Shown here: one piece after another, positions 17,833 through 63,652 of the stretch
Layout of the letters: each line of letters opens with the position of its first letter
Position numbering within the stretch: position 1 is the stretch's first letter
Origin: Octopus vulgaris
Lineage: Eukaryota
Reading direction: 5' to 3'
Length of the DNA stretch: 64,000 nucleotides
Assembly: GCA_951406725.2 (NCBI GenBank)
Contig: OX597817.1
Location: forward strand, 123,504,001-123,568,000
The notes under the pieces: generated by a model
What the model was told of the DNA's origin: nothing
What the model saw: only the letters and a program-made list of their open reading frames with translations
The model's database searches: none
Program-made: the position numbers and the translations under genes

Positions 17833-17982
17833 TTTCTGTGAATGTCGGACAGCCTTCGAGCCATCGTCGTCAAGAACCCGATGACATCACGTTGCTTTAT
17901 TGAAAAACTTCTGTGAATGTCGGACAGCATTTGAGCCACCTTCGTCAAGAACTCAATGACAGCACGTTGCTTTATTGAAAAC
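17833..17982. repeat. ~75-bp tandem duplication within the mariner N-terminal coding region
   Basis: ttctgtgaatgtcggacagc..cacgttgctttattgaaaa occurs twice, back to back. Confidence 0.9.
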
Positions 17983-38080: not shown

Positions 38081-38214
38081 AAAAGAAGAAGAATATATCT
38101 ATATATACATATAATTGATAAAAAAGAAAATGAAGAAAACACAAGAAAAACAACAATGCGAAGATGTGGCACATGCAAAGTATTAGCAGACGCTCAGGGA
38201 AGGAAAGAAAGGTA

Positions 38215-38249
38215 GTTTTACATTTCGAGCAAAGCTCTTCGTCAGAAAC
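38215..38249 (-). ncRNA. Minimal type I hammerhead motif (Penelope-like)
   Basis: Minus strand reads gttt-CTGACGA-a-gagc ttt gctc-GAAA-tg-TA-aaac. Confidence 0.75.
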
Positions 38250-38313
38250 AAGAGACGGAGGAAAATCCAAGAGAAAAGGAAGACAGGAAAATTCGCCAAC
38301 GATCCACATGTAG

Positions 38314-42076: not shown

Positions 42077-42340
42077 TATAATTTAGAACAAACAATTAAA
42101 TGTTTTCTTTATAGTACTCGGAGTTTTGAATGTCAGAGGTAAGAGCCACGATGCATTCGCGCCAGATATTAATGGCAACAGATGCTATGAAAAACTGTTG
42201 AATAAAAGGGAAGTTACTCTAATAGGAAGAAAAAGAAAAAAGAAAAGCGATAAAAAATACACGCAAGCATATTCTCATAATATATAGACATAAACCTCCT
42301 GTGTTCACAACGTCTACATATATACATGTATCTATCTATC

Positions 42341-42399
<59 letters not shown>

Positions 42400-42462
42400 T
42401 GACAGGGCGAGACTGCTAGGTAGTCGGCCGCATGCTAGAAATAGATCATCAACGATCAAACT
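42341..42462 (+). repeat. Left copy of the duplicated flank: (TA)n(TG)n plus the first ~64 bp of the MITE TIR
   Basis: Repeated at about 43388-43534 on the other side of the array. Confidence 0.85.
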
Positions 42463-42756
42463 GTACATATAACCTTCGAAGGTTATATGGATACAGTTTG
42501 TGTATCAAATAGCTAACTTAAGGCGATGGCCTCATGGAGCTAATAAGCGGACAGCTTTATTCTTACTTTTATAAGAATGCCATATTAGTATGGCGATAAC
42601 TATTAATTTCCAGGAACGCTGCCGTGTTCTCTTTTAGAGAGACTTAGTAATTTTAATATTTCTATTATTGAAAACAAGTGGATGTATTCCACCGAAACTA
42701 GGTAATAAAACCTTCGAACAGAGATAGTCGGAAGCGACACCTACTGGTCTGACTAC

Positions 42757-42798
42757 GCTACATTGACAAGGGGCAATACCCCGAAATGCGTCTGTTGC
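42757..42798 (+). ncRNA. Type I hammerhead ribozyme, copy 1 (U3:A8 variant)
   Basis: gctaca-TTGACAA-gggg caata cccc-GAAA-tgcg-TC-tgttgc. Predicted cleavage after 42792. Confidence 0.8.
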
Positions 42799-43118
42799 TG
42801 TCGACCAAGTAGTGTGGAGCGACTGACCTCCCTTGTTCGAAGGTTATATGGATACAGTTTGTGTATCAAATAGCTAACTTAAGGCGATGGCCTCATGGAG
42901 CTAATAAGCGGACAGCTTTATTCTTATTTTTATAAGAATGCCATATTAGTATGGCGATAACTATTAATTTCCAGGAACGCTGCCGTGTTCTCTTTTAGAG
43001 AGACTTAGTAATTTTAATATTTCTATTATTGAAAACAAATGGATGTATTCCACCGAAACTAGGTAAATAAAACCTTCGAACAGAGATAGTCGGAAGCGAC
43101 ACCTACTGGTCTGACTAC

Positions 43119-43160
43119 GCTACATTGACAAGGGGCAATACCCCGAAACGCGTCTGTAGC
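43119..43160 (+). ncRNA. Type I hammerhead ribozyme, copy 2 (U3:A8 variant)
   Basis: gctaca-TTGACAA-gggg caata cccc-GAAA-cgcg-TC-tgtagc. Perfect 6-bp stem I, palindromic ACGCGT stem III and a GUC triplet. Predicted cleavage after 43154. Confidence 0.88.
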
Positions 43161-43388
43161 TGTCGATCAAGTAGTGTGGAGCGACTGACCTCCCTTGTTC
43201 GAAGGTTATATGGATACAGTTTGTGTATCAAATAGCTAACTTAAGGTGATGGCCTCATGGAGCTAATAAGCGGACAGCTTTATTCTTATCTTTATAAGAA
43301 TGCCATATTAGTATGGCGATAACTATTAATTTCCAGGAACGCTGCCGTGTTCTCTTTTAGAGAGACTTAGTAATTTTAATATTTCTAT

Positions 43389-43466
<78 letters not shown>

Positions 43467-43470
43467 TGTA

Positions 43471-43833
43471 TTGACAGGGCAAGACTGGTAGGTAGTCGGC
43501 CGCATGCTAGAAATAGATCATCAACTATCAAACTACAAAGAATGTTCTCCAGAGGAAAATTTAGCGAACACCAGAACCAAAGTTCGCGGGCAGGACAGAT
43601 GAAAATTTATATAAAAAAAACAGAATTAATCGCATACCTCGGTTTCAGCCTTTAACAAAAGAATTACTTACATAATTCAAATGTCCGTGGCCTCATTAGT
43701 ACGATCGTTCAGAATAAATGTAATCTGAAAATCTAACCCCTAAATTTTCCTCTAGAGAACATTCTTTGTAGTTTGAGCGTTGATGATCTATTTCTAGCAT
43801 GCGGCCGACTACCTAGCAGTCTTGCTCTGTCAA
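43471..43833. mobile_element. MITE with ~94-bp terminal inverted repeats and TA flanks
   Basis: 43471-43564 is the reverse complement of 43740-43833, with few mismatches. Confidence 0.92.
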
Positions 43834-43931
43834 TATACACATGTATTAGAATTTTTTTCTGATTTTTCAGATTTGTGTATGCTATATTACTGGTTTTAAA
43901 TTGAAATTAAAATTAATATTAATTTATCTCC

Positions 43932-49266: not shown

Positions 49267-50085
49267 ATCATCATAATCATCATCGTATTTTGCGTCCGTT
49301 TTCCATGCTGGCATGGGTTGGACGGTTTGACTGGAACTTGGTAAGCCAGAGGGTTGTCTCAGGTTCCTGTCTGTTTTGGCTTTTTTCTACGGTTGGATAC
49401 CCTTCCTAATGCCAACCGTTCCACAGAGTGTAGTGGGTGCCTTTTATATTCACCCGCACATGTGCTGTTTATGTGTTAGTGGCACAAGTGCCTTTTACAT
49501 GTTACTGGCATGGGTGCCTTTTATGTGTCACCACTGCTGACCACAACAACAATTTTACTTAGTTTGACTTGCCTACTCCAGCACAGCAAATTGCCAAATG
49601 TCTCTGTCATTTGTCATCACCATGAGACTTAGCATCCCAAGATCAAACTTCACTGCTTCATCCTATGTTTTCCTGGGTTTACCTCTTCCACAGGTTCTGC
49701 ACAGTTAATGATTGATACTTCTTTACACAGTTGTCTTCATCCATACACATCACATGATCATACCAGTGAAGTCTTCTTTCTTGCAAATTACTTCAGATGT
49801 CTCTTATACCAAAATTTTTCTCTCAAGACTTTTGCACGCTCTAATACATGAACACTGACTTTGTTCATCCAGTGAAGCATACTAGCTTCATTTCTTTCAA
49901 GCCTTCACATGTTTTCTGCAGTAACAGCCCATGTTTTACTGCCATGCAGAATGGCTGTTTGCAGACAATCACCCTGCAATCTGCCTTTCATACTGAGGGA
50001 GAAGTCCCTTGTTACCAACAAAAGTAGAAACTCTCTAAAATTTTTCCAGCTTTTTCTCATTCTAGCAGCTACACTCTCAAAACCT
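49267..50085 (-). mobile_element. Second, more diverged RTE LINE 3' fragment
   Basis: Homologous to 46978-47890 (gtccgttttccatgctggcatgggttggacgg; agcatactagcttcatttctttcaagcct). Confidence 0.88.
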
Positions 50086-50660: not shown

Positions 50661-50995
50661 TTTTGACTGTTATTTCTAGCAACTCTGTTGGTTTGCTCGT
50701 CGCTTTTAAATATTTAATTGCTCACGAATGTTTCTCGCTATTTTCCCTGTTTACTTTGCTCATGTATATTTTAATGTTTTGATTGTTACTTCTAGCAACT
50801 CTTGTTGGTTTGTTTGCAGCTTTTAAATATTTAATTTGCTCGTGAATGTTTTAATGTTAACTTTGCTCTTCTATATTTTAATATTTTGACTGTTATTTCT
50901 AGCAACTCATAAAGGTTTGTTCGTAGCTTTTAAATACTTAATTTGCTCACGAATGTTTTCATGTTTTTCAGTTAATTGTAGCTAGTTTAATGTTT
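50661..50995. repeat. Three tandem ~107-116-bp units
   Basis: ttttga.tgtta.ttctagcaactc at 50661, 50777 and 50884. Confidence 0.9.
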
Positions 50996-63329: not shown

Positions 63330-63652
63330 GCTGGTGGCACATAAAAAGCACCATCCGTTCGTGGCCATTGCCAGCCTCGCCTGGCCCCTGTGCCAGTGGC
63401 ACGTAAAAAACACCATCTGATCATGGCCGTTTGCCAGCCACGCCTGGCACCTGTGCCGGTGGCACGTAAAAAGCACCCACTACACTCACGGAGTGGTTGG
63501 CATTAGGAAGGGCATCCAGCCGTAGAAACATTGCCAGATCAGACTGGGCCTGGTGCAGCCTACTGGCTTCCAAGACCCCAGTTGAACCGTCCAACCCATG
63601 CTAGCATGGAAAGTGGACGCTTAACGATGATGATGATGATGATGATGATGAT
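63330..63652 (+). mobile_element. RTE 3'-tail fragment or partner SINE with internal ~65-bp repeats and a (GAT)n tail
   Basis: gtggcac.taaaaa.cacc occurs three times, followed by the same tail as 60010-60192. Confidence 0.88.

What the first reader, a model, noticed from the sequence alone, without database searches (positions are those of the whole stretch)
43119..43160. Hammerhead core with compensatory U3:A8 pair (UUGACAA instead of CUGANGA)
Seen: both copies read stem I-TTGACAA-stem II (gggg caata cccc)-GAAA-stem III-TC-stem I. Known: positions 3 and 8 form a tertiary Watson-Crick pair in the active hammerhead fold, and rare natural U3:A8 variants retain activity. Inference: the double change is compensatory rather than decay, which argues for selection on catalysis. 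Standard CUGANGA pattern searches would miss the whole family.
Basis: partly seen in the sequence, partly recalled or inferred. Interest (0 to 1): 0.85.

Follow-up and report, generated by a model that had tools for sequence, protein, structure and literature searches.

The report
Swapped-core hammerhead in jumping RNA repeat
A hammerhead-shaped RNA motif with a U-A instead of the usual C-G core pair sits in each unit of a 362-base tandem repeat present over a thousand times in this genome; it likely cuts its own RNA as a pair of copies and is likely spread by Penelope-type jumping genes, and while the U-A swap is already published, related repeats in the same genome also carry C-G, unpaired C-A, U-G and A-U versions.

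Summary
Confirmed. 43119-43160 is a type I hammerhead with a U3:A8 core. A second copy (42757-42798) has two lesions. Both lie in a 362-bp tandem (2.5 units), a non-LTR retrozyme. Genome-wide, 1265 of 1274 scaffold matches are U3:A8. Insertions show Penelope-element hallmarks: (TA)n targets, inverted arms and two alternative 3' ends. Stems covary, the core does not, and stem III stays palindromic in six different sequences, which points to dimer cleavage.

The U3:A8 swap itself is published (PMC3088659, PMC4209133), and this scan met it before in Penelope minimal hammerheads of other genomes.

The context is new. In related retrozyme families U3:A8 is basal, and a young clade changed to C3:G8 beside an amplified unpaired C3·A8 subfamily. 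A co-resident (TA)n-targeting Penelope clade with intact RT/GIY-YIG frames has U3:A8 (1914), A3:U8 (887; not found in my paper searches) and U3·G8 cores.

The compensatory reading is supported. Strict selection on catalysis is not, because mismatched cores also amplified. Cleavage, circular RNA and the partner element are untested.

The parts
43119..43160 (+). Type I hammerhead, copy 2; U3=43125, A8=43130, predicted cut after C17=43154; identical over 136 nt to at least 21 other genomic places
42757..42798 (+). Type I hammerhead, copy 1; same U3:A8 core, one change in the stem III palindrome and one stem I mismatch
43148..43153 (+). Stem III palindrome; predicted 6-bp helix between two copies (-7.5 kcal/mol; copy 1 version -3.9)
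43140..43161 (+). Predicted loop II / stem I tertiary contact: last loop II base A (43140) and unpaired U1.7 (43161), both nearly or fully invariant in alignment A1
   Evidence: contact described in PMC11875169; inferred here
43073..43205 (+). Long hairpin that extends stem I; compensatory changes between subfamilies
42475..43391 (+). Retrozyme array: 362-bp unit, 2.5 copies, 40% GC, no open frame of 70 codons or more inside it; predicted monomer between cuts 42793-43154
43326..43391 (+). About 63-nt tail between the two alternative 3' ends (unit positions about 174 and 237); this insertion ends at the long end, joined to (TA)n
42457..42480 (-). Short inverted piece of the unit at the 5' junction
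   Evidence: unit 44-69, 92%
42340..42462 (.). Left copy of a duplicated flank: (TA)n(TG)n plus 65 unique bases; likely a long target-site duplication
43388..43534 (.). Right copy of the duplicated flank (3 differences in the 65 unique bases)

Best explanation
The motif is the type I hammerhead of a non-coding 362-bp tandem repeat (a non-LTR retrozyme) whose family carries U3:A8 as its fixed core pair; it is predicted to cut after C17 once two neighbouring copies pair their palindromic stem III, would so release a 362-nt monomer that may circularise, and is likely copied into (TA)n tracts by the reverse transcriptase and endonuclease of a Penelope-like element (PLE). Shown: anatomy, copy number, covariation, palindrome conservation, insertion structure, and co-resident PLEs with intact frames and the same target. 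Inferred: transcription, cleavage, dimer fold, circles and the partner. U3:A8 likely works as a compensated form of the C3:G8 tertiary pair, under real but leaky selection.
For: (1) 1265 of 1274 scaffold matches are U3:A8. (2) Between young and old subfamilies of the window's family, 0 of 14 core columns but 23 of 65 other columns differ, Fisher p=0.005; N7 varies freely (C/A/U). (3) In 22 hand-picked rows, 8 of 24 pairs change on both sides and 0 of 500 shuffles reach this (related rows, so not a probability). (4) Stem III occurs as six different perfect palindromes; 264 of 278 motif occurrences in fetched loci are palindromes (overlapping loci not de-duplicated, some loci chosen by patterns that fixed stem III). 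(5) 50 of 72 insertions have inverted arms; 43 of these 50 pair one short with one long 3' end, and none pairs two of the same class; 104 of 111 such ends abut (TA)n against 3.5% background. These are the PLE tail and target signature of PMC8557442 and PMC11167929. (6) A PLE family with an 811-aa RT + GIY-YIG frame in 98-100% identical copies ends at (TA)n with two ends about 43 nt apart. (7) Natural U3:A8 covariation and in vitro activity of covarying 3/8 pairs are stated in PMC3088659.
Against: An unpaired C3·A8 subfamily of related family II amplified (15 of the first 100 listed matches, 10 places, 98.5% mean identity). A PLE subfamily with U3·G8 and a one-base loss beside the cut site reached about 170 matches. 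In one pairwise mutagenesis only the C3G/G8C swap rescued activity (PMC9901934). Hammerhead mutants did not affect PLE insertion in vitro, and that ribozyme needed protein (PMC11167929). Only 1 of 9 frog retrozyme dimers cleaved (bioRxiv 2026.07.22.740005). 46 of 72 insertions hold only one same-strand hammerhead. No sequence similarity links the retrozyme to the PLE families examined. A competing 3-bp helix in the core has probability about 0.6 in the monomer fold.
Confidence: 0.7

Rival explanations
1. The hammerhead is weak or dispensable. The repeat is copied as uncut tandem RNA by PLE machinery, and the core persists mainly by descent, so 3/8 states drift through unpaired forms.
For: Amplified C3·A8 and U3·G8 subfamilies. 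PMC11167929: uncut RNA is the main insertion substrate in vitro. PMC8557442: Naiad PLEs thrive without canonical hammerheads. PMC9901934: no rescue other than the G:C swap.
Against: Core unchanged while stems covary at 45-75% identity. The large, long-lived lineages are all Watson-Crick at 3/8 (U:A, A:U, C:G). The C3·A8 subfamily is small and has the shortest branches. Palindromes are kept.
Confidence: 0.18
2. The ribozyme cuts, but only when a protein (the PLE RT/EN or a host chaperone) refolds it, and pairing of two copies is secondary.
For: PMC11167929: an anole PLE hammerhead cleaved only with protein. The monomer fold has an unfavourable stem III (-7.6 vs -13.2 kcal/mol without it) and a competing helix.
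Against: Six different palindromes at stem III are hard to explain unless the two-copy helix is used. Invertebrate retrozymes cleaved alone in vitro (PMC7229834).
Confidence: 0.1
3. A chance or decayed look-alike in a satellite repeat, with no ribozyme role in its history.
For: The heptamer is at chance frequency; Rfam gives no hammerhead match; copy 1 is damaged.
Against: All other core bases, three stems, U1.7, more than 1200 copies with 0 in reversed controls, covariation, and C3:G8 relatives.
Confidence: 0.02

Closest known systems
Non-LTR retrozymes of animals (Cervera and de la Pena 2020, PMC7229834; Li et al. bioRxiv 10.64898/2026.07.22.740005)
   Same: Type I hammerhead in 150-450-bp tandem units, GC under 50%, no coding frame, long flank duplication, dispersed copies, strongly self-paired monomer (63% paired), co-occurrence with PLEs.
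   Different: Core is U3:A8 in most lineages here; I saw no such core described for retrozymes in the parts read (the 2020 supplement was unreadable). Insertions show PLE-type inversion, tail and (TA)n targeting directly. RNA not shown.
U3-A8 hammerhead variants (Perreault et al. 2011, PMC3088659; Schistosoma Cercyon PLE minimal hammerheads, PMC4209133)
   Same: Same swapped 3/8 pair; high copy number.
   Different: The Schistosoma motifs are minimal hammerheads in PLE terminal repeats. This one has the canonical 6-bp/4-bp architecture with U1.7 and sits in a non-coding tandem. C:G, C·A and U·G relatives, and A:U in PLEs, occur in the same genome.
Penelope-like elements with C-terminal GIY-YIG (PMC8557442, PMC11167929)
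   Same: 5' truncation, inverted arms, partial tandems, optional tail at one end, AT-rich or (TA)n targets.
   Different: No RT or endonuclease; tail about 63 nt rather than 30-40; no sequence similarity to the PLE terminal repeats examined.

Membership tests
Type I hammerhead ribozyme | Conserved core U4 G5 A6 A9 G12 A13 A14 A15.1-U16.1 and an NUH cut site | tested here: met
   (GUC triplet)
Type I hammerhead ribozyme | Watson-Crick pair between positions 3 and 8 | tested here: met
   U3:A8 in both copies and in 1265 of 1274 matches
Type I hammerhead ribozyme | Literal CUGANGA consensus or Rfam hammerhead match | tested here: not met
   none of the 30 best RF00163 genome hits examined (of 59) is this motif. 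Filed therefore as the published U3:A8 variant (PMC3088659), not the consensus form.
Type I hammerhead ribozyme | Three helices around the core, open at stem I, supported by covariation | tested here: met
Type I hammerhead ribozyme | Short palindromic stem III allowing a dimer fold (animal type) | tested here: met
   (sequence property; the dimer itself is not shown)
Type I hammerhead ribozyme | Loop II / stem I tertiary contact | tested here: inconclusive
   U1.7 invariant and last loop II A invariant in A1; the contact is inferred from PMC11875169
Type I hammerhead ribozyme | Self-cleavage | not testable with these tools
   needs an in vitro assay
Non-LTR retrozyme | Tandem units of a few hundred bp, each with a type I hammerhead | tested here: met
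   362 bp x 2.5; arrays with up to 8 same-strand motifs
Non-LTR retrozyme | Non-coding, GC below 50%, self-paired monomer | tested here: met
   no frame of 70 codons inside the array; no PLE protein match in the window; 40% GC, 63% paired, z -6.8
Non-LTR retrozyme | Dispersed mobile copies; long flank duplication where present | tested here: met
Non-LTR retrozyme | Expressed as linear and circular monomer RNA | not testable with these tools
   only contigs were available and no holder was on record as RNA
Non-LTR retrozyme | Mobilised by an autonomous PLE | tested here: inconclusive
   insertion signature met; candidate PLEs exist but share no sequence with the repeat
Autonomous PLE or its terminal repeat | RT plus GIY-YIG frame next to the repeat | tested here: not met
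   no such frame is a regular neighbour of the 72 insertions; the few PLE pieces nearby are separate insertions

The most novel reading that the evidence does not exclude
One genome records the hammerhead 3:8 pair evolving in real time. A retrozyme superfamily has U3:A8 as its ancestral working core and a young lineage that returned to C3:G8 by way of a still-mobile unpaired C3·A8 state. Beside it, a PLE clade uses an active natural A3:U8 core not previously reported. The swapped cores would be true compensations, and the mismatched subfamilies short-lived valley crossings carried by PLE machinery.
Probability: 0.4. Interest if true: 0.65.

Novelty: new variant of a known kind. Interest (0 to 1): 0.45.

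Why it matters
The U3:A8 swap alone is known. The same genome, however, offers matched natural sequences (family II subfamilies 89-95% identical) with U:A, C·A and C:G cores, and PLE families with U:A, U·G and A:U cores. That makes two open questions directly testable with natural alleles: whether self-cleavage is needed for retrozyme and PLE spread, and how a compensatory pair crosses its fitness valley. The two-ended, (TA)n-targeted, inverted insertions are also direct structural evidence in an invertebrate that retrozymes use PLE machinery. In practice, more than 2000 retrozyme and about 3000 PLE motif matches here escape a CUGANGA search.

Tried and rejected
Rfam scans gave no hammerhead for the motif. 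In one search the 150 of 211 rows shown were microsatellite look-alikes.

My first C3:G8 search gave 0 and suggested no C3:G8 relatives. This was wrong for the wider group, because that pattern fixed stem III; one search found them.

A 6.2-kb PLE family next to one insertion has no detectable hammerhead and no similarity to the repeat, so it is not supported as partner. The other PLE families gave only short AT-rich matches.

The idea that A-to-I edited RNA is written back into new copies was rejected: private changes A>G 13 vs T>C 19 in 73 insertions. Template-specific variants shared by all units of one insertion were rare (2 vs 123), so no rolling-circle signal came from that test.

Sequencing runs: no RNA holder listed. 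Contigs of four runs from four species labels cover the unit, with no listed change at positions 3 or 8 among the rows shown (32 rows not shown). They say nothing on expression.

One search used a mis-spaced pattern and is uninformative. The tree lost the C3:G8 rows to a filter and was replaced. The order of C·A and C:G within their clade differs between and is unresolved. Holding the family II U:A rows together is not rejected (AU p 0.41).

Papers not held: PMC5785218 and PMC1986816. Either could already describe A3:U8.

Full report
Observation. The second copy (42757-42798) has the same core but a changed stem III base and a stem I mismatch, and folds no better than shuffles (z -0.3 vs -2.6). 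The heptamer alone is at chance level. Both motifs cap a 133-nt hairpin (z -6.3 and -7.5). Rfam reports no hammerhead at E<=10 on the 931-bp stretch.

What it sits in. The motifs are 362 bp apart in a 2.5-unit tandem, 42475-43391, 40% GC, with no open frame of 70 codons inside. The array ends on a (TA)n tract, starts with a short inverted piece, and is flanked by a duplicated stretch of about 125-150 bp. The genome is 2.8 Gb in 227 contigs; that it looks octopus-like is recalled and untested. The 136-nt hairpin region is 100% identical at 22 places on many contigs (40 of 2150 candidates scored), so the family is young and was recently mobile.

Insertion anatomy. I examined 72 insertions from 68 fetched loci (73 less 5 duplicates). 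50 have an inverted arm. 3' ends fall at unit positions about 174 (57 ends) or about 237 (54 ends), with 11 elsewhere. 43 of the 50 inverted insertions have one end of each class and none has two of the same. 104 of 111 such ends abut (TA)n, against 3.5% of random window 20-mers. Inversion, an optional tail at one end and microsatellite bias are described for PLEs (PMC8557442, passages). The tail corresponds to two internal RT start sites (PMC11167929, parts 1-2 of 4). The repeat encodes nothing, so it is a non-autonomous passenger, matching non-LTR retrozymes (PMC7229834, passages and section 14; bioRxiv 2026.07.22.740005, parts 1-3 of 5).

Is U3:A8 compensatory or decay? With 3, 7 and 8 left free, 337 of 340 matches are U3:A8, 2 are C3·A8 and 1 is U3·G8. 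In a wider scaffold it is 1265 of 1274. This shows the family state but, in young copies, not selection. An older subfamily about 75% identical has U:A in 21 of 28 rows (2 antisense rows of 30 dropped; others 3 U·G, 2 U·U, 1 U·C, 1 C·A). Between young and old majorities, 0 of 14 core columns and 23 of 65 other columns differ (p=0.005). In 22 hand-picked rows, 8 of 24 pairs change on both sides. Stem III appears as six different perfect palindromes (with the duplication and selection caveats given above). This fits the dimer model for animal hammerheads (PMC4209133, parts 1-2 of 4; PMC6765202, passages).

Relatives with other 3/8 states. A looser search found two further 358-360-bp families. 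They are 45-57% identical to the window's family with co-linear hairpins; blastn links the family II and III loci tried to the window unit only at the hammerhead, so wider homology is inferred from alignment. Family II has the same two-ended (TA)n insertions (29 of 35 ends). Of 152 non-U3 matches, the first 100 listed include 74 C3:G8 and 15 family II C3·A8 at 10 places (counted by eye). Of 724 U3 matches, the first 100 are 86 U:A, 13 U·G and 1 U·U. In a tree of 39 rows with positions 3, 7 and 8 masked, the 22 C3 rows (12 C:G, 10 C·A) form one clade (100/99) on a short branch among U:A rows, with U:A and U·G outgroups. So C3:G8 is derived from U3:A8 here. Whether C·A is the stepping stone or a later loss is unresolved: disagree and support is weak. 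Either way, an unpaired core amplified (98.5% mean identity).

Candidate partners. A PLE family with an 811-aa frame (Pfam RVT_1 E 2.8e-07; GIY-YIG weak, E 0.067) has 98-100% identical copies, ends at (TA)n with two ends about 43 nt apart, and carries a minimal U3:A8 hammerhead after the stop codon. Sister and outgroup PLE families carry A3:U8. Genome counts in one shared scaffold: U:A 1914, A:U 887, U3 with another base 178 (95 of the first 100 are U·G), A3 with another base 43, C3 or G3 41 (no C:G, one G:C); all reversed controls were 0. The U·G PLE subfamily also mostly lacks one base beside the cut site, yet spread. No PLE examined shares sequence with the retrozyme, so the partner is not identified, and the shared U3:A8 may be convergence.

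Mechanism. Most likely a tandem transcript folds so that two hammerheads share a 6-bp stem III (-7.5 kcal/mol; the monomer stem III is unfavourable), U3:A8 replaces C3:G8, and cuts release a 362-nt monomer that may be ligated to a circle. A PLE protein then starts reverse transcription at two sites about 63 nt apart on nicked (TA)n DNA. Against strict dependence on cleavage stand the mismatched subfamilies, PMC9901934 (passages: only the G:C swap rescued in a type III construct), PMC11167929 (insertion independent of cleavage; protein-assisted ribozyme) and the 1-in-9 success rate for frog dimers. This locus itself has one intact and one damaged copy. Expression was not shown.

Novelty. Natural U3:A8 is in PMC3088659 (passages and section 8) and PMC4209133, and earlier notes of this scan report it in PLE minimal hammerheads elsewhere. 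I did not find natural A3:U8 in a full-text search for 'A3-U8' and 'A3U8', in supplement file 2 of PMC4209133 (file 1 not searched) or in the scan's notes. PMC5785218, PMC1986816 and the supplement of PMC7229834 could not be read and may bear on this. PMC11875169 and PMC3884650 were read as passages only. Verdict: a real motif and a new variant of a known kind. Interest 0.45.

Noticed in passing
window 38212-38250, minus strand: Isolated minimal hammerhead-like motif with a canonical C3:G8 core (CUGACGA, an extra base before a 4-bp stem II, short stem III), typical of PLE terminal repeats; no PLE protein match in the window. A close relative was seen in L154.
   Followed up: partly
L163:1938-4700 (G000:C1:202.2 Mb) and relatives L162-L172: Young PLE family with an intact 811-aa RT/GIY-YIG frame, an overlapping upstream 495-aa frame with no Pfam match, and a U3:A8 minimal hammerhead with a 2-bp stem II.
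   Followed up: yes
L173, L188, L190, L191, L193-L212, L259-L261: PLE families with A3:U8 hammerhead cores (1672 matches vs 97 control); stem I sequences differ between families yet mostly pair.
   Followed up: yes
L266-L274, L307-L325: Second retrozyme family (359-360 bp, 49% GC) with C3:G8, C3·A8 and U3:A8 subfamilies.
   Followed up: yes
run X8, loose end before window 43132: A 30-base contig end differs from the main genomic subfamily only by five A>G changes, two in the core; it looks like A-to-I hyper-editing of the repeat's RNA. One contig, run type only guessed, no matching DNA run.
   Followed up: partly
L134-L141: Another young PLE family (884-1008-aa frames, 6.2-kb tandem period, long CA-rich spacer, many identical copies) with no hammerhead found by my descriptor.
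   Followed up: partly
L105-L133: Further C3:G8 hammerhead families found by RF00163, some with a 60-70-nt insertion in loop II; no PLE protein match in their 3-kb loci.
   Followed up: partly
window 43465-43835: Element with about 85-bp terminal inverted repeats (MITE-like); its left end is the part duplicated by the retrozyme insertion.
   Followed up: no
window 17834-17981, 49437-49528, 50748-50965, 63334-63477: Other short tandem repeats with 75-, 26-, 107- and 63-bp units.
   Followed up: no
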